Of a stretch of DNA of 64,000 nucleotides, positions 36,493-59,603 are shown piece by piece. This DNA is from Saprospiraceae bacterium (lineage in GTDB: Bacteria > Bacteroidota > Bacteroidia > Chitinophagales > Saprospiraceae). Below the pieces are notes generated by a model. That model worked only from the letters and a program-made list of their open reading frames with translations, had not been told where the DNA came from and did no database searches. The stretch's first letter is position 1. Each line of letters begins with the position of its first letter. Both the position numbers and the translations under genes were made by a program. The DNA is taken from assembly GCA_033761835.1 (NCBI GenBank), contig JANRME010000304.1, positions 5,686 through 69,685 of the forward strand. Direction: 5' to 3'.

Positions 36493-36494
36493 AT

Positions 36495-37199: not shown

Positions 37200-37222
37200 T
37201 TAACGAATATTAAAAAGATAAT

Positions 37223-38782
37223 ATGAAAAAGAGACGACTATTACCCTTGATGAGCACCCTGTTGTTAATGCAGGCGATGGCTTTTGGACAACAACAGGCG
37301 GATGTAAGCATTATTGTCAATGCAGATCAAAGTAAATATACTATCAACAAACACATCTATGGTCATTTTGCAGAGCATTTGGGCAGGTGTATATATGGCG
37401 GCTTTTATGTTGGAGAAGATAATCAAAAAATTCCTAATACAAATGGCGTTCGCAATGACGTTGTTCAAGCGCTGAAGGAATTAAAAATTCCCAATTTGCG
37501 CTGGCCCGGCGGTTGCTTTGCAGATACTTATCACTGGAAGGATGGAATTGGGCCCAAAAAAGACCGCCCAACGATGGTTAATCAATGGTGGGGCGGCGTC
37601 ACCGAAGATAATAGCTTTGGCACGCATGATTTTTTGAATATGTGCGAATTGTTAAATACGGAACCTTATTTATCGGTCAATGTGGGCAGCGGTACCGTAA
37701 AAGAAGTTGCAGATTGGGTGCAATATGTCAATCATGATGGTATAAGCCCAATGGCTACTTTGCGTAAAGAAAATGGACGGGAAAAACCCTGGAATGTAAA
37801 ATATTGGGGCATGGGTAATGAAGCTTGGGGCTGCGGCGGTAATATGACGGCAGAATATTATGCGAACATTTACCGGCAGTATGCAACCTTTGTTTCTGAT
37901 TGGACCAATAGCAAACAAATACAACGTATCGCTTCTGGCGCAAGCGATGATGATTATCACTGGACGGAAGTGCTAATGCGGGACGTGCCAAGAAATTTAA
38001 TCGAAGGGGTGGCATTACATCATTATTCTGTTATTAATTGGGGTAATAAAGGTTCTGCAACGGATTTCTCTGAAGACCAGTATTTTAGTACTATGAGACA
38101 GGCCTTATTAATGGATGAATTAATAACAAAGCATACCAATATCATGGATCGTTATGATCCAAGTAAAAGAATAGCACTTGTAGTGGATGAGTGGGGTGGC
38201 TGGTATGATGTAGAACCAGGAACAAACGGTGCATTTTTATATCAGCAAAATACCATGCGCGATGCTGTGTTAGCTGGCGCCACACTGAATATTTTTAACA
38301 ATCATGCAGATAGAGTTAGGATGGCGAATTTGGCACAAACGATTAATGTATTGCAGGCTGTTATTTTAACGAATGAGACAAAAATGCTTTTGACACCGAC
38401 TTACCATGTAATGAAAATGTATAATGTACATCAAGATGCGAAGCTACTGCCAATTAATATAAATAATATAATGTATAAGCAAGGCGATCGGGAACTACCT
38501 GCTGTTTCAACTTCTGTATCACAGGATGCTAATGGGGCTATTCATATTTCTTTAGTGAATGTTGATCCGAACAAAGAGCACTCTGTGGCGTTACGGATTC
38601 GGGGAGCAGCTTTCAAAATAGTGAGCGGTTCGATATTGACTTCACAGAAACTACAGGATCACAATACTTTTGATCATCCTGACAAGGTGAAGCCGGTTGC
38701 ATTTAAAGATTTCAAAAAAGAGGATGATCTTTTGTCTGTAAAAATGCCGCCATTTTCGGTTATTGTGCTTGAATTAAAGTAA
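37223..38782 (+). CDS. GH51 alpha-L-arabinofuranosidase, secreted
   Basis: Signal peptide. WGMGNEAWG carries the acid/base Glu in GNE, and LVVDEWGGWY carries the nucleophile Glu. Confidence 0.85.
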   Translation: MKKRRLLPLMSTLLLMQAMAFGQQQADVSIIVNADQSKYTINKHIYGHFAEHLGRCIYGGFYVGEDNQKIPNTNGVRNDVVQALKELKIPNLRWPGGCFADTYHWKDGIGPKKDRPTMVNQWWGGVTEDNSFGTHDFLNMCELLNTEPYLSVNVGSGTVKEVADWVQYVNHDGISPMATLRKENGREKPWNVKYWGMGNEAWGCGGNMTAEYYANIYRQYATFVSDWTNSKQIQRIASGASDDDYHWTEVLMRDVPRNLIEGVALHHYSVINWGNKGSATDFSEDQYFSTMRQALLMDELITKHTNIMDRYDPSKRIALVVDEWGGWYDVEPGTNGAFLYQQNTMRDAVLAGATLNIFNNHADRVRMANLAQTINVLQAVILTNETKMLLTPTYHVMKMYNVHQDAKLLPININNIMYKQGDRELPAVSTSVSQDANGAIHISLVNVDPNKEHSVALRIRGAAFKIVSGSILTSQKLQDHNTFDHPDKVKPVAFKDFKKEDDLLSVKMPPFSVIVLELK

Positions 38783-38811
38783 ACTGTAAGCAAAAGGTTA
38801 ATAGCACATTA

Positions 38812-39483
38812 ATGAAAATTCAGGGATTTATTTTTGATATGGACGGTACGATGGTGGACAATATGATGGTGCATCATCGCGCATGGCAACGGAAATTAGC
38901 CGAACTGGGTTTGGAAATGAATTTAGAAGAAGTGCGACAGAGCATTCATGGGATTAATGAAGAAATTTTAGAGCGTTTGTTTGGCGAACGATTCAGTTTG
39001 GAAGAGCGAAAACGCATTTCATCTGAGAAAGAAGCGGCTTATCGAGAGATTTTTTTACCCGAATTGAAATTATTGGACGGTTTATCCGATTTTTTACAAT
39101 CCGCTTTTGAAAAAGGCATTGTAATGGGCGTCGGAACAGCTGCGCCTATTGAAAATGTGGACTTTGTATTGGACCATTTGAATATTCGGCATTACTTCAA
39201 AGCGGTCATTCATGCTGGGTTAGTTTCCAAAGGAAAGCCAGACCCTGAAGTTTGGAAAAAAGTTGCAGAAGGCATGGATCTTAATTTGGAGCATTGCCTG
39301 GTGTTTGAAGATAGCCCTACGGGTACAGAAGCAGCACGGCGTGCGGGTTGCCCGACTTATGTGGTCACTACGACGCATATGCAGGAGGAGTTTGCACAAT
39401 TTCCCAATATAGTAGGCTTTTTAGAGGATTTTACAACCATCAGCATCGAAGAGATACTTCAGGGAGTTTATTTTTACAAGTAA
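38812..39483 (+). CDS. HAD-superfamily hydrolase (beta-phosphoglucomutase-like subfamily IA)
   Basis: Motif [13 protein letters not shown], plus the later GKPDPEV and FEDSPTG blocks. Confidence 0.8.
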
Positions 39484-39508
39484 AAATATTAAAAAACGAG
39501 GATTGGTC

Positions 39509-41002
39509 ATGATGGAAAGTTTGAAAAAACTCGAAATTTGGTTTGTGACGGGCAGCCAGCATTTGTATGGCGAGGAGACCTTAAAACAAGTAGCAGAGCA
39601 TTCACAAGTTATTACAAAGGAACTAAATAATAATTCTAATATTCCGGTTACCATTGTATTTAAGCCTGTGTTGACAACACCAGATGCGATTTATCGGCTT
39701 TGTTTGGATGCCAACTCTGCTGAAAATTGTATTGGATTGATTGGCTGGATGCATACTTTTTCGCCTGCAAAAATGTGGATTCGAGGTTTAAAAATATTAC
39801 AAAAACCGCTATTGCATTTGCATACACAATACAACCGCGACATCCCCTGGGCTTCGATTGATATGGATTTTATGAATCTGAATCAGTCGGCACATGGAGA
39901 TCGAGAGTTTGGATTTATCGGTACGCGGATGCGGATGAATCGAAAAGTAGTGGTGGGGCATTGGCAGGATACAGAGGTGGTTGAGCGAATAAGCGTATGG
40001 TCTCGAGTGGCAGCAGCTTGGCATGATTGGCAGGGCGCAAAGTTTGCTCGTTTGGGCGACAATATGCGACAAGTGGCTGTTACTGAGGGGGATAAAGTTG
40101 AAGCTGAATTGCAATTTGGCTACTCGGTAAATGGCTATGGCATAGGCGATTTGGTGAAATATGTGAATGAAGTAAATGATAATCAAATAAATGATTTAAT
40201 AAGTATTTACCTTGAAACTTATAATGTAGTAAATATTTTGCATAAAAATGGCGTGCAACATAATGCTCTACGCGAAGCAGCACGGATTGAAATAGGATTA
40301 AGCACGTTTTTACAAGATGGCGGCTTTAAAGGATTTACCGATACTTTTGAGGATTTACATGGCTTGGAGCAGTTGCCAGGCATTGCTGTGCAAAGATTGA
40401 TGGCACGAGGATATGGTTTCGGCGCAGAAGGCGATTGGAAAACGGCTGCTTTGGTGCGTGCCATGAAAGTAATGGCTACGGGCTTGCCAGGTGGCAATTC
40501 TTTTATGGAAGATTATACGTATCATTTTCATCCGAATGGGATGGCGGTGTTAGGGGCGCACATGCTTGAAATATGTGAAGGAATAGCAGAGGGGCGACCC
40601 AACTGCGAAATTCATCCACTTGGTATCGGCGGCAAAGCCGATCCCGTAAGGTTGGTGTTCAATGTTGCCGCGGGCGAAGCACTCAATGCTTCCATGATTG
40701 ATATGGGCAATCGTTTCCGTATCTTGGTCAACGAAGTAGAAGCCATCAAGCCGGAAGCAGATTTGCCGAAACTACCAGTAGCAAGAGTGTTGTGGCGTTG
40801 TAAACCGGATTTAAAAACCGCAGCAACGGCGTGGATACTGGCGGGCGGCGCGCATCATACTTGTTATAGCCAAAATTTGACGGCGGAATATTTAGAGGAT
40901 TTCGCGGCTATAGCTGGCATTGAATATGTTTTAATTAATGAAAAAACAGATTTGTATCAATTCAAAAATGAGTTGCGTTGGAATGAAATGTATTACAAGT
41001 AA
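39509..41002 (+). CDS. araA: L-arabinose isomerase
   Basis: Hallmark N-terminus [15 protein letters not shown]. The length is about 497 aa. ATG at 39509; the listed ORF begins at a TTG at 39503. Confidence 0.95.
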
Positions 41003-41051
41003 AGTAATTTCATTATGAGTTAAACTCCGATATATTACCTCTTTGGATCAG

Positions 41052-41106
41052 CCTATAAGGTTTTTTTTAATCTTATAGGTTTATTGTGAAAGATTTATTT
41101 CACAAT
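41052..41106 (+). terminator. Two consecutive hairpins after araA (candidate terminator)
   Basis: First hairpin: cctataag (41052-41059) with cttatagg (41072-41079) around a T8 loop. Second hairpin: attgtgaaa (41083-41091) with tttcacaat (41098-41106). Confidence 0.45.
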
Positions 41107-41145
41107 GTAATAATTGATAGATAATGATTATTTAAATAATATAAT

Positions 41146-42285
41146 ATGAAACGACTAAACCTGACCCTATTCACCTTGGCGCTGCTCTCGATAGTTGCTT
41201 GCAAGCAGGTGTCCAAACAAGAAGATACGACTTCAAAACCAGCCTTTAAGGTAGAAAAAATGCCTTTTGGAAAGGTGGGCGAAGAGGAAATTACCTTATA
41301 CAAACTGTCCACGCCAAGTGGTTTTACGGTCGAAATAATCAATTACGGCGCGGCCATTGTATCCATTCTTGCGCCTGATAAAAATGGCGAAATGGGCAAT
41401 GTGGTGCTGGGTTTTGACTCTTTATCCGGCTACTTGCAAGCTGGAAATCCTTATTTTGGTTGTATCGCAGGTCGTTATGCCAATCGTATTGCCAAAGCGC
41501 AGTTTAAACTCGATGGCACAACTTATAAACTTGCCGCCAATAATGGCCAAAATACCTTGCATGGTGGACTAAAAGGATTTGATAAAGTGGTATGGGCCGC
41601 GGAAGAAAGCGTGGGCGATTCTTCTGCATCTTTGATGTTGACATATTTGAGCCCGGATGGCGAAGAAGGTTATCCTGGAAATCTTATGGCCGGCGTGGTT
41701 TACACGGTTACGAACGACAATGCACTCCGGATTCAATACAAAGCGACAACGGATAAAGCGACGCCTGTTAACTTGACCAATCATGCTTATTTCAATCTGG
41801 GTGCCGGCAAAACGCCTGATATTCTTGGGCATGAATTAATGCTTAATGCTGACGATTACACGCCTGTGGACGCTACTTTGATTCCAACCGGAAAAATTGA
41901 ATCGGTGAAAGGCGGTTCAATGGATTTTACGAGCGCGAAGCCCATTGGTAGAGATTTGGCGCAAGTAGAAGGCGGATACGACCATAATTTTATTCTGAAT
42001 AAAACCGGAAATGGCCTGTCATTAGCAGCGACTTTGTACGAGCCCACTTCGGGTAGAATGATGGAAATGCAGACCACCGAACCGGCGGTTCAATTCTACT
42101 CGGGCAATTTTTTAAATGGAGGGCTTACAAATGAAGATGGGAAGACAATTGTGAAGCATTACGGACTTTGCCTAGAAGCACAGCATTATCCGGATTCACC
42201 TAACCAACCTAATTTTCCAAATACCATCTTAAAACCAGGTGAAACTTATACGCAAACTACAATGTACCGCTTTTCAATAAAATAA
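41146..42285 (+). CDS. Aldose 1-epimerase (mutarotase), lipoprotein
   Basis: Contains NLTNHAYFNL plus the GalM-type blocks GGLKGFDKVVW and EAQHYPDSPN. N-terminal lipobox at LALLSIVAC. Confidence 0.85.
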   Translation: MKRLNLTLFTLALLSIVACKQVSKQEDTTSKPAFKVEKMPFGKVGEEEITLYKLSTPSGFTVEIINYGAAIVSILAPDKNGEMGNVVLGFDSLSGYLQAGNPYFGCIAGRYANRIAKAQFKLDGTTYKLAANNGQNTLHGGLKGFDKVVWAAEESVGDSSASLMLTYLSPDGEEGYPGNLMAGVVYTVTNDNALRIQYKATTDKATPVNLTNHAYFNLGAGKTPDILGHELMLNADDYTPVDATLIPTGKIESVKGGSMDFTSAKPIGRDLAQVEGGYDHNFILNKTGNGLSLAATLYEPTSGRMMEMQTTEPAVQFYSGNFLNGGLTNEDGKTIVKHYGLCLEAQHYPDSPNQPNFPNTILKPGETYTQTTMYRFSIK

Positions 42286-42404
42286 ATTTTGATAATTAAA
42301 ACTGAATGATTAATCTTGATTTGTAAAAATTTTATAAAAACAACCGATTGAGAATTATATTTTTAATGTAAATAACATCATAACACCTTTAACTCAAATT
42401 CAAT

Positions 42405-44021
42405 ATGAAAGGTTTTGAAACATTAGACTGGGTGGTAATCGGGATTTATTTTGCGATGCTCTTAGGCATTGCCCTTTGGGTAATCACCCGCCGTCAAAAG
42501 AACACCGAAGATTACTTTTTGGCGGGCCGCAACATTGGCTGGTTTGTTGTAGGCGCCTCTATTTTTGCTTCCAATATTGGCTCGGAGCACGTTGTCGGGT
42601 TAGCTGGTGCAGGTGCCGGTGGCAAAATCCCAATGCTCATTTATGAACTACACGCCTGGTTAGTCATCACGCTTGGCTGGGTATTTCTGCCCTTTTATAT
42701 TCGAAGTGGCATATTCACTACACCTGAATTTTTGGAACGCCGCTTTAATGAGAATACCCGGTGGTTTTTGAGTATTTTCTCCCTATTAGCTTATGTTTTG
42801 ACTAAAGTATCGGTGACTGTTTATGCTGGCGGCATTGTTATCGCTTCACTCTTGGGCATTGACTTTTGGTTTGGCGCTTTGATTACAGTGGTACTCACTG
42901 GTGCTTACACTGTGCTTGGCGGTATGAGGGCGGTGGTTTATACCGAAGCCTTACAAACCGTTGTTCTGATTATTGGCGCGGCTACATTGACTTTTGTAGG
43001 ACTCAACGCGGTCGGCGGTTGGGAAGGTATGAGAGCTTCCTTAGAACCCGGATATCTTAATATGTGGCGGCCAGCTTCTGATCCAAATTTCCCCTGGCCA
43101 AGTTTGGTGATAACCAGTACGATTGTAGGAACCTGGTATTGGTGTACCGATCAATATATTGTGCAAAGAGCTTTGGCTGCCAGAAACATAACCCAGGGAC
43201 GGCGGGGTACGATTTTCGGGGGTTTGCTTAAATTAATGCCGGTATTTTTATTTTTAATCCCGGGAGTCGTTGCTTTAGCTTTGAAAAATAGAGGAGAATT
43301 GAATTGGGATACACCCGATCAAGCATTTGCAACTTTATTGATGGAAAAAATGCCCACAGGCTTGAAGGGCTTGGTTGCTGCGGGGCTTCTGGCAGCGCTG
43401 ATGAGCTCCTTGGCCTCGGTATTTAATTCCTGCTCCACGCTATTCACTGTTGATATTTATAAAAAATTACGTCCTGATACGCCGGAGACTAAATTACTTC
43501 GAGTTGGACGTATCGCCACGGGTATTGTTGTAATATTGGGTATCGCCTGGATTCCAATTATGCAAAATATCTCTGGAGTTTTGTACGAATACCTTCAATC
43601 GGTACAATCTTATATTGCGCCGCCGATTACCGCCGTATTCTTACTGGGAATTTTCTCCAAACGTATCAATAGCACAGGTGCGATGGCTACCTTGATAGCC
43701 GGCTTGAGTGTTGCGGTTGTTCGATTGGTACTGGAATTGAGCAAGGATTCCTTGGATCCTGATAGTATTTTCTTTGCTTTTGGCAACATGAATTTTTTGA
43801 CTTTTGCAGCCTGGTTTTTCTTATTTTCGGTGATTATTTGTATCGGAGTGAGTTTACTGACACCTGCGCCTTCTGTTGAAAAAATTCAAGGATTGACATA
43901 TGGCACACTTACAGCCGAACAAAAAGCGGCGAACCGCGCCAGCTATAGCGTTTGGGATGTAGTATTCTCGGTTATCGTGATTGGAATCGTAGCTTATGTA
44001 ATGATAAGTTTTACGGGTTAG
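42405..44021 (+). CDS. Sodium:solute symporter (SSF/SGLT family)
   Basis: 538 aa with about 13-14 TM segments. The N-terminal block YFLAGRNIGWFVVGASIFASNIGSEH is typical of SSF. Confidence 0.85.
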   Translation: MKGFETLDWVVIGIYFAMLLGIALWVITRRQKNTEDYFLAGRNIGWFVVGASIFASNIGSEHVVGLAGAGAGGKIPMLIYELHAWLVITLGWVFLPFYIRSGIFTTPEFLERRFNENTRWFLSIFSLLAYVLTKVSVTVYAGGIVIASLLGIDFWFGALITVVLTGAYTVLGGMRAVVYTEALQTVVLIIGAATLTFVGLNAVGGWEGMRASLEPGYLNMWRPASDPNFPWPSLVITSTIVGTWYWCTDQYIVQRALAARNITQGRRGTIFGGLLKLMPVFLFLIPGVVALALKNRGELNWDTPDQAFATLLMEKMPTGLKGLVAAGLLAALMSSLASVFNSCSTLFTVDIYKKLRPDTPETKLLRVGRIATGIVVILGIAWIPIMQNISGVLYEYLQSVQSYIAPPITAVFLLGIFSKRINSTGAMATLIAGLSVAVVRLVLELSKDSLDPDSIFFAFGNMNFLTFAAWFFLFSVIICIGVSLLTPAPSVEKIQGLTYGTLTAEQKAANRASYSVWDVVFSVIVIGIVAYVMISFTG

Positions 44022-51061: not shown

Positions 51062-52978
51062 TTGACAAAATTTGCTTTGATTGATACGCCGTTACATATT
51101 CTTAAAAAATACTGGGGTTATAATGCTTTCCGAGACTTGCAAGCCGACATCATCCAGTCGGTACTCGATGGCAAAGATACCCTGGCGCTGATGCCTACAG
51201 GCGGCGGTAAATCTATCTGTTTTCAAGTGCCTGCGCTTTGCCAGGAAGGTATTTGCATTGTTATTTCTCCGCTTATTGCATTAATGAAAGATCAGGTACA
51301 TAATCTGCGTCAACGTAATATTCCTGCTGCTGCTATTTATTCGGGGATGCATTCCATAGAAATGGACCGAATTTTTGATAATTGTGTTTATGGCAATACC
51401 AAGTTGCTTTACCTTTCACCAGAGCGTTTGGTTACGGATTTGGCCCGCGAACGCATTTCACGGATGCACGTCAATCTGCTGGCAGTGGACGAAGCACATT
51501 GTATCTCGCAGTGGGGTTATGATTTTCGTCCGTCTTATCTTGAAATTGTGAATATTCGTGAACTTGTTCCCAAAGCGCCGATTCTGGCTTTGACCGCTAC
51601 CGCTACGCCCGAAGTAGTAGAAGATATTCAAGAAAAATTGCAATTCAAATCCAAGAATGTATTTCAAAAAAGCTTTGCCCGAAGCAATCTCGCTTATGTT
51701 GTATTGAATGAAGAGGGAAAAATGGAAAAATTACTGGATATTTTAAAAAAGGTGAAAGGCTCGGGTGTAGTTTATGTACGCAATCGACGTAAAACAAAGG
51801 AAATTGCTCAGTTTTTGGTACAAAAAGGAATTGCCGCTGATTTTTATCATGCCGGTTTACAGCCTGAAGAACGTTCGGAAAAACAAGACGCATGGATTGA
51901 AAATCAAACGCGTATTATAGTGAGTACCAATGCTTTTGGGATGGGAATCGATAAGCCCGACGTGCGTGTAGTGGTACATTTGGAACTGCCTGATAGCCTC
52001 GAAGCATATTTCCAAGAAGCTGGGCGCGCGGGGCGCGATGGTAAAAAATCTTATGCTGTATTGTTATATAATCATAATGACCGCTTGAGTCTTGAGAAAA
52101 ACTATGCATTGGCTTTCCCTGAAATAAATGAAATTCGACGTGTATATCATGCTTTAGGAAGTTATTATCAACTCGCTATTGGAGCAGGCGCTGGGGCGAG
52201 TTATGATTTTGATATGATATCCTTTGGAAAAAATTTTCAATTAGAGCCTATCAGAACATTACACGCGCTCAAAACGCTGGAACAAGCCAGCTGGCTTACG
52301 CTTACTGAGGCTGTTTACACGCCTTCGAGTTTGCAGGTAAAGGTTTCCAAAGAAGAATTATACGATTATCAATTGCGACATCCTAAATATGATTTGATGC
52401 TCAAAGCCATTTTGCGCTCTTATCAGGGTTCTTTTAGTCATTTTGTAAATGTTCGTGAATCACAATTGGCTTCTTTTTTAAAAATTTCAATCGAGGAAGT
52501 TATAAAAACGCTAGATTTATTACATAAAGATAATATCATTGAATATTTGCCGCAGACCGATCAACCGCAACTCACTTTCCTGCAAGATCGGGTTGACGCA
52601 AACGATTTGACAATTGACCACCAATTGTACGAATTTCGGCGCAAACGGCACTGGGAACGCATCCAAAAAGCGATTGCTTATGCCGAAGATCCAATTTGCA
52701 GGAGTCGCCAATTATTGAATTATTTTGGTGAAAAAAATGATAAAGATTGTGGTATTTGTGATGTATGTCTTGGCAGAACCAAAGCTGATTTAAGTAATGC
52801 GGATTATGATGCGATTAAAAATAAAATTCAAGAAAAGCTAAATGAAAATGTAATGCCCCTGGAGCAACTTATGAGTGGATTTTCATCTACTAGCCAGGAA
52901 AAAGTGCTACGTGTATTGGAATACTTATTGGATGAAGGCTACGTTTTTCAGAATGGAAATGTTTTACAATGGAAATGA
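51062..52978 (+). CDS. recQ: RecQ-family ATP-dependent DNA helicase
   Basis: Walker A LMPTGGGKS, DEAH box (VDEAHCISQWGYDFRP), and a RecQ-Ct Zn motif (CRSRQLLNYFGE...CGICDVC). The start is a TTG. Confidence 0.9.
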   Translation: MTKFALIDTPLHILKKYWGYNAFRDLQADIIQSVLDGKDTLALMPTGGGKSICFQVPALCQEGICIVISPLIALMKDQVHNLRQRNIPAAAIYSGMHSIEMDRIFDNCVYGNTKLLYLSPERLVTDLARERISRMHVNLLAVDEAHCISQWGYDFRPSYLEIVNIRELVPKAPILALTATATPEVVEDIQEKLQFKSKNVFQKSFARSNLAYVVLNEEGKMEKLLDILKKVKGSGVVYVRNRRKTKEIAQFLVQKGIAADFYHAGLQPEERSEKQDAWIENQTRIIVSTNAFGMGIDKPDVRVVVHLELPDSLEAYFQEAGRAGRDGKKSYAVLLYNHNDRLSLEKNYALAFPEINEIRRVYHALGSYYQLAIGAGAGASYDFDMISFGKNFQLEPIRTLHALKTLEQASWLTLTEAVYTPSSLQVKVSKEELYDYQLRHPKYDLMLKAILRSYQGSFSHFVNVRESQLASFLKISIEEVIKTLDLLHKDNIIEYLPQTDQPQLTFLQDRVDANDLTIDHQLYEFRRKRHWERIQKAIAYAEDPICRSRQLLNYFGEKNDKDCGICDVCLGRTKADLSNADYDAIKNKIQEKLNENVMPLEQLMSGFSSTSQEKVLRVLEYLLDEGYVFQNGNVLQWK

Positions 52979-53677: not shown

Positions 53678-54778
53678 TTGGGAAAAAATATCATTTGTAC
53701 CGTTACCAACGATCTTTCTTATGACCAACGCATGATTCGTATTTGTACAAGTCTTGCTCATGCTGGTTATAAAGTGCTGTTAATCGGGCGGTTGAAAAGA
53801 AATTCTGAGTCATTGATAAATAAACCTTTTCAACAAAAACGCTTGAAATGCTGGTTTGAAAAAGGTAAGTTTTTTTATATTGAATATAATATTCGATTGC
53901 TTTTTTATTTACTTTTTGTAAAATTTGATGCGATTTGCGCAGTAGATTTAGATACCATTTTACCAGGATTATTTCTGAGTAAAATCCGTGGAAAGCCCTG
54001 TGTTTATGATGCGCATGAGTATTTTACAGAAACGCCAGAAGTTGTGCGCCGCCCAATTATAAAATATATTTGGGAAATGATTGCCAAATTTGCCATTCCG
54101 CGCGTGGAGGTAGCATACACGGTGGGGGAGGAGTTAGCAAAGATTTTTGAACAGCGATATAAAAAGAAATTTTGGGTCATTCGAAATGTACCATTTCGAC
54201 AAGAAGGAATTGCAAATCCAACTCGAAATATTATATTATATCAAGGTGTATTAAATGAAGGACGCGGTTTGGAACAAGCCATCGAAGCGATGCAAACGCT
54301 TGAAAATAGTGAACTTTGGCTGGCTGGCGAAGGCGATTTATCTGCATTTTTGCGACAAAAAGTTATTCATTTACAATTGGAAAATAAAGTAAAATTCTTG
54401 GGTTATTTACATCCAAAAGAGTTACATGAAACAACATTGCAAGCGAAAATAGGGCTTAATTTATTGGAAAACAGAGGCTTGAGTTATTATTATTCTTTAG
54501 CAAACAAAACATTTGATTATATTCAGGCGGGCATCCCTTCCATTCATATGAATTTTCCGGAATATAATAAAATTAATGAAAAGCATGATGTTTTTTTACT
54601 AATTGAGGATTTGAATATTCAAAGAATTATAACAGCCATTGAAAATTTAATCAAAAATAAGGATTTGTATAATGAATTGCGAGAAAATTGCCTGGAAGCT
54701 AAAAAAATCTTTGTTTGGGAGAAAGAAGAAGAAAAATTAATAGCGCTGTATAATAACCTGTTAAAGAATAAGCATTAG
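53678..54778 (+). CDS. Glycosyltransferase (GT-B fold, GT4-like)
   Basis: 366 aa with a TTG start. The C-terminal half contains ILYQGVLNEGRGLEQAIEAM...LWLAGEGD and an E-x7-E-like region. Confidence 0.7.
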   Translation: MGKNIICTVTNDLSYDQRMIRICTSLAHAGYKVLLIGRLKRNSESLINKPFQQKRLKCWFEKGKFFYIEYNIRLLFYLLFVKFDAICAVDLDTILPGLFLSKIRGKPCVYDAHEYFTETPEVVRRPIIKYIWEMIAKFAIPRVEVAYTVGEELAKIFEQRYKKKFWVIRNVPFRQEGIANPTRNIILYQGVLNEGRGLEQAIEAMQTLENSELWLAGEGDLSAFLRQKVIHLQLENKVKFLGYLHPKELHETTLQAKIGLNLLENRGLSYYYSLANKTFDYIQAGIPSIHMNFPEYNKINEKHDVFLLIEDLNIQRIITAIENLIKNKDLYNELRENCLEAKKIFVWEKEEEKLIALYNNLLKNKH

Positions 54779-54802
54779 GAAATTTGTAAATCTCCTAATG
54801 CT
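54771..54802. terminator. Hairpin between convergent genes
   Basis: agcattagga (54771-54780) with tcctaatgct (54793-54802) and a 12-nt loop. It overlaps the GT stop codon. There is no T-run. Confidence 0.45.
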
Positions 54803-54820
54803 TGGCAATCAATTATTTGA

Positions 54821-57343
54821 CTATTCTTCTTCTTCAAAAATAGCTCTACCGCTCCGATCGATAATCGTCACACCCGCTTGTTGTGTACCCATCAGCAAAA
54901 TATCTTGTACGTTTACATGCGGCGGACGCGTGATCGCCCAAAGGATTGCATCGGCTACATCGCTCGCATTTAAGGGTTTAAAATCTTCATAAATCCTGGC
55001 TCTTTCGGCATCGCCATCAAACCGAACCAATGCAAATTCCGTCTCTTCTACATGCCCGGGCGCAACCTGGCTTACTCGAATATTGTAGGAATGCAAATCC
55101 AAACGCATCCCTTTGGTTAAGGCTTCTACCGCGAATTTGGAGGCGCAATACACATTTCCATTCGGATAGACTTCTTTACCCGCGGTCGAACTGATATTGA
55201 TGATATGTCCTTTTCTGCGCTTCACCATCAAAGGCGCTACGACACGTGTCATGTATAGCAAACCCTTCACATTCGTATCAATCATTTCTTCCCAATGCTC
55301 CAATTTTCCTTCGTGGATTGGATGGAAACCTTTGGCTTTGCCAGCGTTATTAATTAGTATATCAATAGCTTGCCAATCTTCGCCGAGGTTTTCAATAGCA
55401 CGTTCCACTGCATTTACATCCCGGACATCGAAATCAAGCGTTTTTATTTTGATATCATATTCGGACTCCAATTCTTTCTCCAGATCATCCAAACGTTCTT
55501 TGCGACGACCAGTAAGGATTAAATCGAAACCATTTTCTGCTAATAATGTTGCCGTAGTTCGCCCAATGCCAGAAGTCGCGCCAGTGATCAGCGCAATTTT
55601 GCCTTCACCCGGAAGTTTCGCTTTTAGAGTTTCTGCTGCCTCCGCTTGCTTTGCCGCCTCTTCTTCTTGTGTTTTCAGCATTTCCTCCAATTGTTGGATA
55701 CTTTGCTTGAGGGCCTCGATTGTTTCATGCGTAGCAGCCGATTCAGGATAAGCGGTCACTTTATACTCAAAAGCTTTGTCGTTTTCCGGGGTTTTTAACT
55801 CTGGATTGATTTTTATAGCGCGCAAGTAGTATTCACGGGCGGTTTCTTTATTTCCCATTCGATGGTATGACATCGCCAAATCATAATTGGCAAATGGATG
55901 TTTTGGATTCGCTTTTAGCGTTTTTTCAAAATATTTGATTGCTTTTTTAGGTTTGTCCAATTGTTCCGCTAACAAATTGGCGTAGCGATACGTGGCATCC
56001 ATATTGTTTTCATCATATTTAGCAGCTTTTTTGAAATATTTAGCAGCTTGTTCTATTTGATCCGGATATTGTGCAGCTACGACCATGCCCAGGCGATAGT
56101 ACGCATCGGCGTTTTCATCGTTGATCTCTACCAACTTTTCGTAAGAATTTTTTGCCAGCAGAAAATCTTGTTTTAATTCAGCCAATTGTCCAATGAGTAA
56201 AAGCGCCTCTTCGTTTTCAGGTTCTATTTCTAAAGCGGCATCCAATTGATTAATGCTTTCCGATTGATTGTCAGTATATTGTGCCAATAAAACGGCATAA
56301 GCATAGCGCAACGCAAAACTTCCAGGATGGAATGAAATATAATCTGCTAAAGAACTTAAAGCGCTTTGTACATCGCCGGAATTGGCAGCATCATAAGCGG
56401 TTTCAACCCAATTTTGAATCTGGGCTTCACCAATGGGTTCTTCTTCTAAATCTTTCTCTTCTGGCTCAGGCGCTGCTTCGATTTCAATTGGGGGTTCTAT
56501 TTTCGATTCAATATGTTCAAATTCAAAATTGCCATTTGAACTGGGTTCTGGCTCATACATTTTTTCTGCTTCTTCAACTATGGCAACAGGAGTTTCGGCT
56601 ATTTTTTCTTCCAGTATAGGTTCTTCCACATTAGGGTGGGATTCCACTTCTATCTCCTGTTTAATTTCAACAATCGGCGGCAAAGTTTCAACCGGTGCGG
56701 TTGGCTCAAAAGTAGGCTTCGGTGCAATGGGCATCAACGGTGGCAAATCGCGGAAAGCCCGCCAGCCATTGTCATCATTGGTAAAACGGAAAAAACGCTC
56801 GTAGCTATTGGCAATAAAATCAGGGTATTCCAAAAAATCCATGTTGCGCAAAGTCCTCAGAAACTCTCCGATTTCACCCGAAATATCGCGCATCACACGT
56901 AAGTACTGATTAAACTTTTCTTCGTCCAATTCATCGTGCAATTGGCGCTTTTGCTTGCGCAAATCGAGATATTGATCTTGCCAATAATTGATATATTTGA
57001 TAATATCGCTCACGCGATCAAATTGCGTGGGAGCGCTGATGGGTTGCCCTGTATTATCATCTTTGGTTTGGCCATCTACAATCACAGGTAATATATCGGA
57101 GCCGCGTTCTTGTAGAAACTTCAAGCCACCACTCATGCACTGCGCGGATTTCAGGAAATTATCGCTGATGACCAACAGAACTGGTCCGCGTTTACCACGC
57201 AATTGAGTGCTGAGCGATTCGTCGTTAGTGGTTCGTTTGCAGTAAAAATGTTCAAACGAGTAGGAGGCCCTGCTCAATTGGCGTTCGATTTCTTCTGCAA
57301 TTCTAATGTTGTCAATGCAGTATGCTAAAGCTATACTTTTCAT
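54821..57343 (-). CDS. Multidomain protein: TIR-like N-domain, acidic Pro/Glu linker, TPR repeats, C-terminal classical SDR oxidoreductase
   Basis: 840 aa. Residues 1-75 (SIALAYCIDNIRIAEEIERQL...GPVLLVISDNFLKSAQC) follow the TIR_2-like beta-alpha pattern. Residues ~205-310 are a P/E-rich low-complexity stretch. Residues ~310-560 hold several 34-aa TPR-like repeats (AYYRLGMV..., AKYFKKAAKYDENN..., AIKYFEKTLKANPKH..., AREYYLRAIKINPE). The C-terminus has ALITGATSGIGRTTA (TGxxxGxG), NNAG and YCASKFAV (YxxxK). Confidence 0.7.
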   Translation of the reverse strand: MKSIALAYCIDNIRIAEEIERQLSRASYSFEHFYCKRTTNDESLSTQLRGKRGPVLLVISDNFLKSAQCMSGGLKFLQERGSDILPVIVDGQTKDDNTGQPISAPTQFDRVSDIIKYINYWQDQYLDLRKQKRQLHDELDEEKFNQYLRVMRDISGEIGEFLRTLRNMDFLEYPDFIANSYERFFRFTNDDNGWRAFRDLPPLMPIAPKPTFEPTAPVETLPPIVEIKQEIEVESHPNVEEPILEEKIAETPVAIVEEAEKMYEPEPSSNGNFEFEHIESKIEPPIEIEAAPEPEEKDLEEEPIGEAQIQNWVETAYDAANSGDVQSALSSLADYISFHPGSFALRYAYAVLLAQYTDNQSESINQLDAALEIEPENEEALLLIGQLAELKQDFLLAKNSYEKLVEINDENADAYYRLGMVVAAQYPDQIEQAAKYFKKAAKYDENNMDATYRYANLLAEQLDKPKKAIKYFEKTLKANPKHPFANYDLAMSYHRMGNKETAREYYLRAIKINPELKTPENDKAFEYKVTAYPESAATHETIEALKQSIQQLEEMLKTQEEEAAKQAEAAETLKAKLPGEGKIALITGATSGIGRTTATLLAENGFDLILTGRRKERLDDLEKELESEYDIKIKTLDFDVRDVNAVERAIENLGEDWQAIDILINNAGKAKGFHPIHEGKLEHWEEMIDTNVKGLLYMTRVVAPLMVKRRKGHIINISSTAGKEVYPNGNVYCASKFAVEALTKGMRLDLHSYNIRVSQVAPGHVEETEFALVRFDGDAERARIYEDFKPLNASDVADAILWAITRPPHVNVQDILLMGTQQAGVTIIDRSGRAIFEEEE

Positions 57344-57428: not shown

Positions 57429-58796
57429 TTATAATTCTTCTGCCATCAATTCCTTGATAAAAGTATCAAATTTTTGTTTAAAATTTTGGTATTCGCTGGT
57501 CGCGGGCCCTGAAAACCCGGTGTGAATGCGCCGAACTTTATTCTGCCGATCAATAAAAATCATGGTCGGAAAAGAAATCACGCGATTGAGCATCGGAAGT
57601 GCTTTGCTTGCTTTGGTCTTGACATCAGAACCAGCATATAGAATCTCATAATCTATTCCAAAAAATTCCTTGTACTTTAGAATGGCAGCCCGAGCTTTGC
57701 TCTCATCGTTGTGGCGCTCAAAAGCCAGTCCAATAATTTCCAGGTCATCGTTTGGGTTATTTTTTAAATAATCCAATAAAAATTCAGTTTCATCTCTACA
57801 ATTAGGACACCAAGTGCCCATAATTTGTACGATCTTTATTTTATCCTGGTATTTTGGATCATCAAGTGAGATGGTTTTACCGTCTGGATTTTTAAATGCA
57901 AAAGTAAATTTATCATAACCAGGATTGAGGTAAGTCAAGGAATCTGCATTGCCCAGGCGAAACTCAGAGTTGCGTCGTGCCGTCCAAGTGGTGGTATAAT
58001 GCTTGCCCGACCACCAAGTACCAAATAATGTACTGTCGGCTTGAATTTTGGCTTCAAAAAGATAAGCGTGCGAACCATCAAATGCTGAAAGATAAAGCTT
58101 ATCACCTTGAACCGTACCCTCCAAAAAGCGATGGTCGCCGGTTTCGGTCATAAAAGTACCATTCAGGTTATTTCCTTTTTGTACAAATTCGCCAATCCCT
58201 TTTTCTTCATCTTCTGTGTCAGGCGAAAATGTTACCTCCCAGCGCCCGGTGGCATCCAATGTAGGTGTTTCTTTCATTTTGGTGAAGCGATGCGACAGGC
58301 CTTGACGGGCAACAAATGGAATTCGATAGTCCACATTTCGATTATTCACTACCCATTCACCTTGAATGATATTTTCATGATAAATTCCCTTTATATAAGA
58401 ATCGAATACAGGGAAATTAATTACAATCGTATCTTTTGCAATGCGTTTATCTCTGCCGATGACGATGTCATCCAAGCGAATACGCTCTTCACCATTTATA
58501 ATTTCAATATAAAATTTAGTATCATTTTCATACTTTACTTCAAAAGTGAATGGAAGCTCTCCTGAATTGATACGATCAATTCGATTAGGAATTTCCTCAT
58601 CATCGGCTGTGCCGCCCTTCGTTGTACTGGCTGCCACAGGATCAAGCGTCAGAACGGCTCGCCAATAACCTGGCGCTAAACCTGTATAAGGATTTTCAGC
58701 TACAAAACAACCGGAATTTACCACGATTGCGATTATAGCAATTAGCAAGAATATTTTATTTTGCGCAAATGTTGTGGTCATATTTTTATAAGTCAT
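57429..58796 (-). CDS. Lipoprotein with C-terminal TlpA/ResA-like thioredoxin domain
   Basis: 455 aa. Hydrophobic N-terminus with NSGC. The C-terminal domain carries GTWCPNC (CxxC). Confidence 0.75.
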   Translation of the reverse strand: MTYKNMTTTFAQNKIFLLIAIIAIVVNSGCFVAENPYTGLAPGYWRAVLTLDPVAASTTKGGTADDEEIPNRIDRINSGELPFTFEVKYENDTKFYIEIINGEERIRLDDIVIGRDKRIAKDTIVINFPVFDSYIKGIYHENIIQGEWVVNNRNVDYRIPFVARQGLSHRFTKMKETPTLDATGRWEVTFSPDTEDEEKGIGEFVQKGNNLNGTFMTETGDHRFLEGTVQGDKLYLSAFDGSHAYLFEAKIQADSTLFGTWWSGKHYTTTWTARRNSEFRLGNADSLTYLNPGYDKFTFAFKNPDGKTISLDDPKYQDKIKIVQIMGTWCPNCRDETEFLLDYLKNNPNDDLEIIGLAFERHNDESKARAAILKYKEFFGIDYEILYAGSDVKTKASKALPMLNRVISFPTMIFIDRQNKVRRIHTGFSGPATSEYQNFKQKFDTFIKELMAEEL

Positions 58797-58860: not shown

Positions 58861-59388
58861 TTATCCTTTCTCTCCTACAAAATGATGCTCCTTGTATTTG
58901 AACAATATATTGAAGGTAGTCAGACTCCCGTAAATGCGCGTCAGGTATTGCTGCAAGTTAATTTTATCCTCATCTGTCAATTTCTCGCTCGTATTGATGC
59001 GTTGTTCCATTACACGAAGCCTATCACGTACCATTACGATTTTATGGAAAAAAGTTTCAATTGGAAACTCTTTTTCTTTCAAAGAATTGTCAGAAGGCTT
59101 TAGAATCATGGTACCGCCAACCCAACGATCACCCAAAGGCACTTCTTCGGAAATGTCGGAAAAGTCGCGCAAAATTTTGATTAATGATTTCTCGGCTTCA
59201 CTAAAAGTGACGTTTTCTTCGGCAGGAAGCGCTTCTATGATGTCCCATTTATCATAATCTCTGCCCACTTGTTTGATGCCGTACAACATAAAACACACTT
59301 CATAAGCCGCTTTGTGTAAGCGAATAATAACACCATCACCGTAAGCGGGATGTTTTACTCTGGAGCCGATTCCCAATGGATTGCCCAT
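58861..59388 (-). CDS. Conserved hypothetical protein
   Basis: 175 aa counted from the ATG (CAT at 59386-59388); the listed ORF begins at a GTG at 59397. No family recognised. Confidence 0.55.
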   Translation of the reverse strand: MGNPLGIGSRVKHPAYGDGVIIRLHKAAYEVCFMLYGIKQVGRDYDKWDIIEALPAEENVTFSEAEKSLIKILRDFSDISEEVPLGDRWVGGTMILKPSDNSLKEKEFPIETFFHKIVMVRDRLRVMEQRINTSEKLTDEDKINLQQYLTRIYGSLTTFNILFKYKEHHFVGEKG

Positions 59389-59603
59389 AATAAACACTTA
59401 ATGATTGGTTTGTAAGTTTACTGTGCCAAATTTGAGAAAATTCTTGAACAAGTTGACGTATTTCATGCTCCTAATGCTGAAAGTAGCAGATCGCCACATT
59501 TTGTTAATATTAAAAATTACTCAGACGATATTTTCTCGTCATTTTTATATCAAATCAAAAACAACCAGACTGAAATCCTGTTGAAAGACCTTAACATTGT
59601 GCT

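What the first reader, a model, noticed from the sequence alone, without database searches (positions are those of the whole stretch)
54821..57343. Unusual single-polypeptide fusion: TIR-like domain, Pro/Glu linker, TPR array and SDR oxidoreductase
The N-terminal ~150 aa follows the TIR_2-type pattern: a beta-strand IALAYC, the helix AEEIERQL, then PVLLVISDNFLKSAQC. A ~100-aa acidic P/E-rich low-complexity linker comes next, then at least five TPR-like repeats. The protein ends in a complete classical SDR (TGATSGIGRTTA, NNAG, S...YCASK) resembling YdfG-type NADP-dependent dehydrogenases.

Bacterial TIR domains are established NAD+-consuming or signal-generating modules in immunity (Thoeris, CBASS-associated, TIR-STING). 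An SDR binds NAD(P)(H). I do not know of a described system that covalently links these two through a protein-interaction scaffold.

The protein could be a nucleotide-sensing or nucleotide-modifying defence or stress effector. It could also be a scaffolded metabolic enzyme whose TIR-like domain is only a structural flavodoxin-like fold. The TIR call rests on pattern reading only.
Basis: partly seen in the sequence, partly recalled or inferred. Interest (0 to 1): 0.7.

Follow-up and report, generated by a model that had tools for sequence, protein, structure and literature searches.

The report
Clade-wide TIR–TPR–dehydrogenase fusion protein
This is a real 840-residue protein that joins a TIR-fold module lacking the NAD-cleaving glutamate, a TPR array and an intact NADP-dependent YdfG-type dehydrogenase; it is a vertically inherited core gene of Saprospirales bacteria rather than an immune system, and what it does in the cell is still unknown.

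Summary
The ORF is real.

**What the domains are**
- The TIR call holds. A family profile hits the MyD88 TIR (E=5e-5). Pfam TIR_2 matches 20 of 23 diverse members. A pLDDT-93 model retrieves plant and bacterial TIR structures first.
- The position of the catalytic glutamate that all tested TIR NADases need is not conserved. Position 72 is Glu in 9 of 150 members and position 73 never is.
- The SDR is the best conserved part. It has an intact N-S-Y-K tetrad and an NADP-type Arg-Arg pair. Its nearest solved structure is E. coli YdfG.

**Distribution and context**
- TIR, helical hairpin, acidic linker, TPR and SDR form a fixed architecture in at least 161 species genomes. All 80 loci listed are Saprospirales or unclassified Bacteroidota MAGs.
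- The gene is the last of a conserved same-strand trio: a 178-aa hypothetical, a TlpA-like lipoprotein, then this gene. The trio sits beside hemE and accA.
- I found no defence-model hit for this protein or its two partners, and no plasmid or phage copy.

**Reading**
The best reading is a scaffolded housekeeping reductase whose Glu-less TIR and TPR parts mediate assembly or partner binding. A defence reading is unlikely. The architecture appears undescribed. Interest is moderate.

The parts
54821..57343 (-). Whole gene: 840-aa TIR-hairpin-linker-TPR-SDR protein plus stop codon
   Evidence: ORF list and translation. An identical protein, P0001, is in NCBI from a Saprospiraceae MAG.
57014..57343 (-). 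Residues 1-110: TIR-fold core. It has strands bA 2-9, bB 28-35, bC 55-59 and bD 84-88, and the invariant motif S60-D61-N62-F-L-K-S-x-x-C69-M70. It lacks the catalytic Glu.
   Evidence: Pfam TIR_2 at E=0.0047 for this protein alone, and 20 of 23 family members match, best 1.1e-8. The family profile hits the MyD88 TIR at 5e-5. The AF2 model has pLDDT 93. Foldseek's top hits are the L6, BtpA, PdTIR and AbTir TIR domains.
56744..57013 (-). Residues 111-200: long helical hairpin (H111-134, H141-167) plus three short helices. It carries the near-invariant motif RVSDIIQYINYWQDQYLDLRRQKR and always accompanies the TIR core.
   Evidence: Alignment A1 invariants. AF2 secondary structure. Co-occurrence with the TIR core in 145 of 146 representatives.
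56423..56743 (-). Residues 201-307: acidic Glu/Pro-rich low-complexity linker of variable length
   Evidence: Mean pairwise identity 0.25, no column conserved at 90%, length 63-414 aa, E 21% and P 9.5%.
55793..56422 (-). Residues 308-517: TPR array of about six repeats
   Evidence: Pfam TPR_17, TPR_16, TPR_8, TPR_2, TPR_19, TPR_14, TPR_11 and TPR_1 all score above their gathering thresholds. The conserved columns are the structural TPR positions.
55610..55792 (-). Residues 518-578: second linker, charged and probably helical, between the TPR array and the SDR
   Evidence: Read from the sequence. Mean pairwise identity 0.34.
54842..55609 (-). Residues 579-834: classical NADP(H)-dependent SDR of the YdfG/YMR226c type. 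Key features are TGxxxGIG 587-594, R613-R614, NNAG 665-668, and N691, S719, Y732, K736.
   Evidence: adh_short at 5.7e-58. NCBIfam YdfG model scores 242 bits, below its 411-bit cut-off. Nearest PDB entry is E. coli YdfG 3ASU at 1e-59. The motifs are conserved at 95-100% in 166 members.
54824..54841 (-). Residues 835-840: acidic C-terminal tail IFEEEE
   Evidence: An acidic tail of the (F/Y)EEEE type is present in 60 of 150 family members and absent in 73.
54770..54803 (-). Terminator-like hairpin (15-bp stem) 18 nt after the stop codon; likely end of the transcription unit
   Evidence: Terminator scan. No terminator-like site was found on the minus strand between the three upstream genes.
57429..58796 (-). 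Conserved upstream partner: 455-aa TlpA/ResA-like thiol:disulfide oxidoreductase with a WCPNC motif. Its N-terminal signal resembles a lipoprotein signal (VVNSGC).
   Evidence: Pfam AhpC-TSA and Redoxin. NCBIfam TlpA and ResA. Present immediately upstream in 77 of 80 loci, on the same strand in 50 of 50 pairs, with gaps mostly -4 to 90 bp.
58861..59397 (-). Conserved first gene of the trio: a 175-178-aa hypothetical protein at 70-92% identity across loci, with no family assignment
   Evidence: Present in 65 of 80 loci. No Pfam, NCBIfam or PADLOC hit. More than 8000 database clusters matched; every one of the 120 listed that carries a name is called hypothetical.

Best explanation
The gene encodes a lineage-specific, vertically inherited, cytoplasmic multidomain enzyme of Saprospirales.

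**Catalytic part.** The C-terminal classical SDR of the YdfG/YMR226c type is the catalytic unit. It most likely uses NADP(H) to interconvert a small 3-hydroxy acid or alcohol and the corresponding aldehyde or ketone. Like other SDRs of this type it is probably oligomeric.

**Accessory parts.** The N-terminal TIR-fold module with its fixed helical hairpin lacks the catalytic glutamate and resembles adaptor TIRs such as MyD88. Together with the TPR array it most likely acts as a protein-protein interaction or self-assembly device. The two are tethered to the enzyme by a long acidic disordered spacer. Their role would be to cluster, localise or regulate the reductase, not to cleave NAD.

**Expression.** The gene is probably co-transcribed as the last gene of a three-gene unit (178-aa protein, TlpA-like lipoprotein, this gene).

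**Shown:** domain identities, an intact SDR active site, absence of the TIR catalytic Glu, clade-wide fixed architecture and synteny, and non-defence context.

**Inferred:** the scaffolding role, oligomerisation, substrate class and co-transcription.
For: - **SDR identity.** adh_short 5.7e-58. E. coli YdfG 3ASU is the nearest solved structure at 1e-59, followed by yeast YMR226C and sulfoacetaldehyde reductase.
- **SDR integrity.** TGxxxGIG, R613/R614, NNAG and N691/S719/Y732/K736 are conserved at 95-100% in 166 members. The SDR is the most constrained region: mean pairwise identity 0.64, with 108 of 256 columns at least 90% conserved.
- **TIR fold.**
- **Missing glutamate.** Position 72 is R/G/N/K/D with Glu in only 9 of 150. 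Position 73 is G/A/S/L and never Glu. The mapping rests on the gap-free HMMER alignment to MyD88 and on the hhalign strand-D anchor to SARM1, whose E642 falls on position 73.
- **Literature.** All examined prokaryotic TIR NADases need this Glu, and the MyD88 and TLR4 TIRs have no NADase activity (PMC7282519).
- **Fixed architecture.** 104 of 146 newly retrieved 50%-identity representatives show all four modules. The rest look like fragments or lack a detectable TPR.
- **Distribution.** 161 species genomes carry a relative. Most of the 80 loci listed are named Saprospiraceae, Lewinellaceae, Haliscomenobacter, Phaeodactylibacter, Lewinella or Flavilitoribacter. The rest are MAGs labelled only Chitinophagales, Bacteroidota/Bacteroidetes/Bacteroidia, or in one case 'bacterium'.
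- **Synteny.** The trio is conserved, with hemE and accA upstream. Same strand in 50 of 50 pairs, with short or overlapping junctions. There is a terminator-like hairpin only after the last gene.
- **Non-defence context.** The neighbourhood is ordinary chromosome: arabinose utilisation genes, DUF885, DUF5686, a RecQ-like helicase and a glycosyltransferase. There are no PADLOC hits for the N-domain or the two partners. Nothing matches on plasmids or phages.
Against: - No experiment or partner identification supports the scaffolding role.
- The TIR pocket region is extremely conserved: Y8, D/E11, N12, D61 and N62 (both 150 of 150), C69 and M70. So is the hairpin helix. This is more than a passive structural domain usually needs, and it could mean ligand binding or an unconventional catalytic site.
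- The SDR scores well below the NCBIfam YdfG equivalog cut-off (242 against 411 bits), so the substrate is not established.
- The TlpA-like partner is predicted to be extracytoplasmic, so the operon link may reflect gene order only.
- Identity to the window protein correlates only moderately with that of the neighbouring genes (Spearman rho 0.32-0.62).
Confidence: 0.6

Rival explanations
1. Defence or abortive-infection effector. The TIR domain is an NADase or cADPR-type signal generator, as in Thoeris ThsB, TIR-STING or SPARTA. It would be triggered through the TPR sensor, with the SDR handling NAD(P)-derived products.
For: - The N-domain is a genuine TIR-fold homologue.
- TIR plus TPR occurs in bacterial conflict systems, usually with a STAND NTPase between them (PMC7159879).
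- A RecQ-like helicase about 1.8 kb away matches PADLOC DpdF models.
Against: - The catalytic Glu is absent at positions 72 and 73. The tryptophan that I recall preceding it in catalytic TIRs (a motif taken from memory, not tested here) is Gln in this protein and in the family consensus.
- Neither the full-length protein nor the N-domain matches a PADLOC TIR or effector model.
- There is no NTPase and no ThsA-, STING- or Ago-type partner.
- The gene sits in a fixed housekeeping neighbourhood in 65-77 of 80 species loci.
- The RecQ/DpdF-like gene is not syntenic elsewhere (1 of 80 loci).
- There are no plasmid or phage copies.
- The N-domain is conserved rather than diversifying.
Confidence: 0.05
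2. Sensor or novel-enzyme TIR. The remodelled, invariant pocket of the TIR-hairpin module binds a nucleotide or nicotinamide-type ligand. It either allosterically controls the tethered NADP-dependent reductase or catalyses a non-canonical, Glu-independent reaction.
For: - Residues that line the TIR active-site region in catalytic TIRs are invariant here: Y8, N12, D61, N62, C69, M70.
- The first hairpin helix, rich in aromatic and basic residues, is also invariant: Y117, N119, W121, Q122, Y125, R129.
- Fusion to an NADP(H) enzyme gives a plausible functional link.
Against: - No ligand-binding evidence exists.
- The conserved residues could equally form a protein interface or the packing core between the TIR core and the hairpin.
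- Sequence affinity is closest to the non-enzymatic adaptor MyD88.
Confidence: 0.15
3. Envelope or redox-stress module. The three co-oriented genes work together, with the cytoplasmic NADPH-dependent reductase feeding or detoxifying something linked to the extracytoplasmic TlpA-like thiol:disulfide oxidoreductase. The TPR and TIR parts would dock the enzyme to this machinery at the membrane.
For: - The trio is conserved in 65-77 of 80 loci, always on the same strand, often with 4-bp overlaps.
- There is no internal terminator-like site.
- hemE lies adjacent.
Against: - The partners are predicted to sit in different compartments.
- The 178-aa family is far larger (more than 8000 clusters) than the fusion family (291 clusters at E<=1e-10). 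Adjacency may therefore be clade-specific gene order rather than a functional system.
- No membrane anchor or known docking motif is present.
Confidence: 0.15

Closest known systems
E. coli YdfG / S. cerevisiae YMR226c (NADP-dependent 3-hydroxy acid dehydrogenases, classical SDR)
   Same: - The C-terminal 256 residues align end to end with YdfG (3ASU, E=1e-59) and YMR226C (2.1e-55).
- Both have the same TGxxxGxG, TGRR, NNAG and N-S-Y-K residues.
   Different: - It scores below the NCBIfam YdfG equivalog cut-off (242 against 411 bits), so it is a relative, not a demonstrated orthologue.
- YdfG is a stand-alone protein of about 250 aa. This protein carries about 580 extra N-terminal residues (TIR, hairpin, linker, TPR) and often an acidic tail.
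Adaptor (non-enzymatic) TIR domains such as MyD88
   Same: - MyD88 is the best sequence match among solved structures (E=5e-5), with a shared bA motif and the 'VVVSDDYLQSKEC'-like bC-aC motif.
- Both lack the catalytic Glu.
- The MyD88 TIR has no NADase activity and works by assembly (PMC7282519).
   Different: - This protein is bacterial and cytoplasmic, fused to an enzyme, and sits in a housekeeping context.
- It carries a family-specific helical hairpin after strand D.
- No death domain or receptor partner is present, and self-assembly has not been shown.
Bacterial TIR NADases and signal generators (AbTir, BtpA/TcpB, PdTIR, ThsB, TIR-STING, SPARTA TIR-APAZ)
   Same: Same fold. These are among the top Foldseek hits, with probability 0.9-1.0.
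   Different: - The catalytic Glu they require is missing.
- No defence partners or defence-island context are present.
- Inheritance is vertical and order-wide, not patchy.
TIR-STAND NTPase-TPR proteins of bacterial conflict systems (Kaur et al. 2020, PMC7159879)
   Same: An N-terminal TIR and C-terminal TPR repeats occur in one polypeptide.
   Different: - There is no AP-ATPase or NTPase module here. An acidic spacer replaces it, and an SDR follows the TPR array.
- The sequence is conserved rather than diversifying, and the gene has a fixed core-genome location.

Membership tests
TIR domain superfamily (fold and homology) | Significant profile match to TIR models or known TIR sequences | tested here: met
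   The family profile hits the MyD88 TIR at E=5e-5. Pfam TIR_2 hits 20 of 23 members, best 1.1e-8. The window protein alone is sub-threshold: 17.8-20.8 bits against a gathering score of 28.
TIR domain superfamily (fold and homology) | Flavodoxin-like alternating beta/alpha fold closest to solved TIR structures | tested here: met
   The AF2 model has pLDDT 93. Foldseek's top hits are the L6 TIR (4e-4), then BtpA, PdTIR, AbTir, BtTir and RPS4. Flavodoxins and dehydroquinases score similarly lower down. No SEFIR or MTH538 entry is among the 50 hits listed.
Enzymatic TIR (NADase or cADPR-isomer synthase) | Conserved catalytic glutamate at the start of helix aC (SARM1 E642 equivalent) | tested here: not met
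   Position 72 is Glu in 9 of 150 members. Position 73 is G/A/S/L and never Glu. Position 71 shows no Glu among its eight commonest residues. The mapping uses the MyD88 alignment and the SARM1 strand-D anchor.
Enzymatic TIR (NADase or cADPR-isomer synthase) | NAD+ cleavage activity | not testable with these tools
   Needs a biochemical assay.
Anti-phage TIR systems (Thoeris, TIR-STING/CBASS, SPARTA, TIR-STAND) | Match to curated defence models and presence of the cognate partner gene or domain (ThsA, STING, short pAgo, NTPase) | tested here: not met
   PADLOC gives no TIR or effector hit for the full protein or the N-domain. The neighbours are a TlpA-like protein, a 178-aa hypothetical, hemE, accA and a glycosyltransferase.
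Anti-phage TIR systems (Thoeris, TIR-STING/CBASS, SPARTA, TIR-STAND) | Patchy, mobile, defence-island distribution | tested here: not met
   Synteny is conserved in 65-77 of 80 species loci. No plasmid or phage matches were found. The window neighbourhood is core metabolism.
Classical SDR, YdfG/YMR226c-like | Rossmann TGxxxGxG, NNAG, and the N-S-Y-K catalytic tetrad | tested here: met
   TGATSGIG 587-594, NNAG 665-668, and N691, S719, Y732, K736 are conserved at 95-100% in 166 members.
Classical SDR, YdfG/YMR226c-like | NADP(H) preference: basic pair after strand b2 (TGRR) | tested here: met
   R613 and R614 are 99-100% conserved and align with the TGRR of YdfG. Actual cofactor use was not assayed.
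Classical SDR, YdfG/YMR226c-like | Equivalog-level score to the curated YdfG model (same function) | tested here: not met
   NF007829 scores 242 bits against its 411-bit cut-off. The protein is YdfG-like, not a demonstrated YdfG.
TPR repeat proteins | Multiple 34-residue helix-turn-helix repeats scoring above Pfam gathering thresholds | tested here: met
   TPR_17, TPR_16, TPR_8, TPR_2, TPR_19, TPR_14, TPR_11 and TPR_1 all score above their cut-offs.

The most novel reading that the evidence does not exclude
The Glu-less TIR-hairpin module may be a new functional class of bacterial TIR that operates outside immunity. One option is a ligand sensor for NAD(P)-derived or other nucleotides, using the invariant Y8/D11/N12/D61/N62/C69 pocket and the invariant W/Y/R-rich hairpin helix to control a covalently tethered NADP-dependent reductase. 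The other is an assembly domain that builds higher-order enzyme scaffolds. Either would be a housekeeping, order-wide use of a TIR domain in bacteria.
Probability: 0.15. Interest if true: 0.75.

Novelty: new variant of a known kind. Interest (0 to 1): 0.4.

Why it matters
Nearly all bacterial TIR domains studied so far are NAD-cleaving immune or virulence enzymes. This family differs in three ways. It is conserved across a whole order, it lacks the catalytic glutamate, and it is hard-wired to an intact NADP-dependent dehydrogenase in a core-genome operon.

If the TIR part works as an assembly or sensor module, bacteria would be using adaptor-type TIRs for ordinary physiology. That bears on how scaffolding TIRs (MyD88, TLRs) and enzymatic TIRs diverged.

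The practical lesson is that a TIR hit should not be read as a defence system without checking the catalytic Glu and the gene context.

The function remains unknown, so the present value is a well-defined, testable family rather than a discovery of mechanism.

Tried and rejected
1. **Plus-strand reading.** It is full of stops. The gene is on the minus strand.
2. **Defence-system assignment.** PADLOC gave only two weak hits in the TPR region for the full protein and nothing for the N-domain or the two partners.
3. **RecQ-like neighbour as a defence marker.** It matches DpdF models, but it has a homologue in only 1 of 80 related loci. I treated it as an unrelated neighbour.
4. **Profile-profile alignment of the family with SARM1 TIR.** hhalign gave only a short alignment over strand D with poor statistics (probability 0.18, E=0.32). 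I used it only as a positional anchor, together with the MyD88 alignment.
5. **Identifying the 178-aa partner.** There were no Pfam, NCBIfam, PADLOC or PDB matches. The AF2 model was poor (pLDDT 59), so I ran no fold search.
6. **Covariation between the TPR array and the acidic tail.** Basic residues in the TPR region are somewhat enriched in tail-bearing members. This is confounded by phylogeny and I treat it as a hint only.
7. **Literature searches for a described TIR-SDR architecture.** These found nothing relevant.
8. **Paralogue search.** There is no stand-alone paralogue of any of the four modules elsewhere in the 64-kb window.
9. **Full-length structure prediction.** I did not run it, because the tool returns no coordinates or PAE, so inter-domain contacts could not be read.
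Full report
**1. Observation**

The coordinates 54821-57343 hold one 840-codon ORF on the minus strand. The plus-strand frame is broken by many stops.

Pfam finds adh_short at residues 582-770 (E=5.7e-58). It also finds a block of TPR families above their gathering scores between about 345 and 515, and a sub-threshold TIR_2 match at residues 5-95 (E=0.0047, 17.8 bits against a cut-off of 28). The only correction is the strand.

**2. The protein is real and belongs to a large, uniform family**

An identical protein is deposited from a Saprospiraceae MAG. More than 100 full-length homologues at 40-75% identity have the same layout, and several carry a precomputed TIR_2 hit.

I ran an exhaustive profile search with the N-terminal 200 residues (alignment A1) against 1.84 billion representatives. 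It found 178 clusters at E<=1e-30. Of the 146 newly retrieved representatives among the 150 listed:
- 104 show TIR, hairpin, TPR and SDR in that order.
- 26 are short, N-terminal-only sequences that are probably contig-end fragments.
- 11 lack a detectable SDR and 4 lack a detectable TPR.

The N-terminal module is thus essentially never found outside this architecture.

**3. The TIR call**
- The family profile hits only MyD88 TIR chains in the PDB (E=5e-5). The alignment is gap-free from strand A through the 'SDxYLxSxxC' motif after strand C.
- Pfam TIR_2 is matched by 20 of 23 diverse members, best E=1.1e-8.
- An AlphaFold2 model of residues 1-200 is confident (pLDDT 93, pTM 0.88). It shows b-a-b-a-b-a-b, a small hairpin, then a long helical hairpin (111-134 and 141-167) and three short helices.
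- Foldseek against the PDB ranks the flax L6 TIR first (E=4e-4, probability 1.0). BtpA/TcpB, PdTIR, TIR-STING, BtTir, AbTir and RPS4 follow. Generic flavodoxin-like folds are interleaved at similar scores. No SEFIR or MTH538 entry appears.

The N-domain is therefore a TIR-fold homologue, extended by a family-specific helical hairpin.

**4. The TIR lacks the catalytic glutamate**

In catalytic TIRs the Glu sits at the start of helix aC. I recall the motif as S-x-x-(F/Y)-x-x-S-x-W-C-x-x-E-L in plant and bacterial TIRs, and the residue is E642 in SARM1. The motif itself comes from my own knowledge.

The requirement for this Glu in all examined prokaryotic TIR NADases, and the lack of NADase activity in MyD88 and TLR4 TIRs, are stated in PMC7282519.

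In the window protein the corresponding stretch is S60-D-N-F-L-K-S-A-Q-C69-M-S-G72-G73-L74. The MyD88 alignment puts the Glu-equivalent at residue 72. A short hhalign match of strand D to SARM1 puts E642 on residue 73. That match has poor statistics (probability 0.18, E=0.32) and serves only as an anchor. I checked my typed SARM1 sequence and it is 100% identical to PDB chains.

Across 150 full-length members:
- Position 72 is R (43), G (31), N (24), K (13), D (12), E (9), and other residues.
- Position 73 is G, A, S or L and never Glu.
- Position 71 is mostly S or N.

The conclusion holds under a one-residue shift either way. By contrast, Y8, N12, D61 and N62 (both 150 of 150), C69, M70 and L74 are invariant or nearly so. 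So is the first hairpin helix, RVSDIIQYINYWQDQYLDLRRQKR. The module is under strong constraint, but not for the known NADase chemistry.

**5. The SDR is intact and is the core of the protein**

Its nearest solved relatives are E. coli YdfG (3ASU, E=1e-59), yeast YMR226C, a Pseudomonas SDR and sulfoacetaldehyde reductase.

The NCBIfam YdfG equivalog model scores 242 bits against a 411-bit cut-off. The protein is YdfG-like but not assignable to the same function.

In 166 family members the following are 95-100% conserved:
- the Rossmann motif
- the Arg-Arg pair after strand b2, aligned with the TGRR of YdfG and typical of NADP(H) users
- NNAG
- the N691, S719, Y732, K736 tetrad

Mean pairwise identity by region:

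| Region | Mean pairwise identity |
|---|---|
| SDR | 0.64 |
| Helical hairpin | 0.46 |
| TIR core | 0.40 |
| TPR array | 0.39 |
| Second linker | 0.34 |
| Acidic linker | 0.25 |

The acidic linker varies from 63 to 414 residues.

**6. Distribution and context**

A scan of one genome per GTDB species found 161 genomes encoding a relative. Most of the 80 listed are named Saprospiraceae, Lewinellaceae, Haliscomenobacter, Phaeodactylibacter, Lewinella or Flavilitoribacter. The rest are MAGs labelled only Chitinophagales, Bacteroidota/Bacteroidetes/Bacteroidia, or in one case 'bacterium'. The named families make up the order Saprospirales.

Homologues of the window genes in those 80 loci:

| Window gene | Loci with a homologue (of 80) |
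|---|---|
| 455-aa TlpA-like gene (immediately upstream) | 77 |
| 178-aa gene | 65 |
| hemE (divergent) | 40 |
| accA-like | 42 |
| Downstream genes | 1 |

Many of the loci that lack an upstream homologue are truncated contigs.

The TlpA-like gene and the target are on the same strand in 50 of 50 pairs. The gaps are mostly -4 to 90 bp.

In the window no terminator-like site separates the three genes on the minus strand. A 15-bp-stem hairpin follows the target's stop codon.

The independently annotated Phaeodactylibacter xiamenensis locus shows the same order.

The remaining window neighbourhood is ordinary chromosome: arabinose utilisation genes, DUF885, DUF5686, a RecQ-like helicase and a glycosyltransferase.

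The N-domain and both partners have no PADLOC hit. The N-domain has no match in 72,556 plasmids or 50,697 phage genomes.

Identity of the target to its homologues rises and falls with that of the neighbours (Spearman 0.32-0.62). This is consistent with vertical descent.

**7. Interpretation**

The evidence fits a housekeeping enzyme with accessory interaction modules much better than an immune effector. I propose the following:
- The YdfG-type SDR carries out an NADP(H)-dependent oxidoreduction of a small hydroxy-acid or aldehyde substrate.
- The Glu-less TIR-hairpin and the TPR array mediate self-assembly, partner docking or regulation.
- These modules hang on a long acidic spacer.

The domain identities, active-site status, distribution and context are shown. 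The scaffolding role, the substrate class and co-transcription are inferred.

The extreme conservation of the TIR pocket region and the hairpin helix leaves room for a ligand-sensing or unconventional catalytic role (rival 2). The conserved trio leaves room for a link to extracytoplasmic thiol-redox biology (rival 3). A Thoeris-like or other NADase defence role is unlikely (rival 1).

**8. Comparison with known systems**
- The enzyme part works like YdfG/YMR226c but fails the equivalog test.
- The TIR part is a member of the TIR superfamily by fold and profile. It fails the defining feature of enzymatic TIRs and resembles adaptor TIRs.
- The TIR-plus-TPR combination recalls the TIR-STAND-TPR proteins of conflict systems (PMC7159879). 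Here there is no NTPase, no diversification and no mobile context.
- I found no paper describing a TIR-SDR fusion. Databases annotate the family simply as 'SDR family NAD(P)-dependent oxidoreductase'.

**9. Verdict**

This is a real, correctly read and unusual architecture, and a new variant of known kinds. The defence interpretation is not supported, and the function is unknown. Interest is moderate, at 0.4.

Noticed in passing
window 58861-59397 (-): A 175-178-aa protein is encoded first in the conserved trio. It is 70-92% identical across Saprospirales loci and matches more than 8000 database clusters. Every listed cluster that carries a name is called 'hypothetical', and there is no Pfam, NCBIfam, PADLOC or PDB match. 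The only hint is a very weak similarity of residues 7-28 to the PcrA/UvrD Tudor domain (E=0.059). The AF2 model was poor (pLDDT 59).
   Followed up: partly
window 57429-58796 (-): A 455-aa TlpA/ResA-like thiol:disulfide oxidoreductase with a WCPNC motif. It has a lipoprotein-like signal (…VVNSGC) and an uncharacterised N-terminal region of about 260 aa with no family hit. It lies immediately upstream of the target in 77 of 80 loci, often overlapping it by 4 bp.
   Followed up: partly
window 54824-54841 (-); family members P0001-P0266: An acidic C-terminal tail of the (F/Y)EEEE type follows the conserved ...DRSGR end of the SDR in 60 of 150 members and is absent in 73. One member (P0051) ends in EEEVD, which resembles the Hsp70/Hsp90 EEVD ligand of TPR domains. 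This suggests a possible intra- or inter-molecular contact between the TPR array and the tail. Basic residues in the TPR region are somewhat enriched in tail-bearing members, but this is confounded by phylogeny.
   Followed up: partly
window 51062-52978 (+): A RecQ-family helicase (DEAD, Helicase_C, RecQ_Zn_bind) matches PADLOC DpdF models very strongly (E=2e-146). I saw no other Dpd components nearby, and the gene has a homologue in only 1 of the 80 related loci.
   Followed up: partly
P0167 (612 aa), P0146, P0219, P0234: A few family members keep the TIR-hairpin and the SDR but have no detectable TPR array. The constant pairing is therefore TIR-hairpin with SDR, and the TPR array is dispensable in some lineages.
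   Followed up: no
L003 10001-12584; L060; L070; P0016 (625 aa): In three long-read MAG assemblies the N-domain and the rest of the gene fall into separate ORFs. P0016 starts in the linker. The likely causes are indel errors or real splits, and I did not resolve which.
   Followed up: no
P0058: One family member is labelled as coming from a Mameliella sp. (alphaproteobacterial) MAG, yet it closely resembles the Phaeodactylibacter sequences. Mis-binning is the probable cause.
   Followed up: no
window 34843-44021 (+): A complete-looking L-arabinose utilisation cluster: FGGY kinase, class II aldolase/epimerase, alpha-L-arabinofuranosidase, HAD hydrolase, AraA isomerase, aldose 1-epimerase and an SSF transporter. 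DUF885 and DUF5686 genes follow.
   Followed up: no
window 54770-54803 (-): A 15-bp-stem terminator-like hairpin lies 18 nt after the target's stop codon, overlapping the 3' end of the convergent glycosyltransferase gene (53678-54778, +). It may act as a bidirectional terminator.
   Followed up: no
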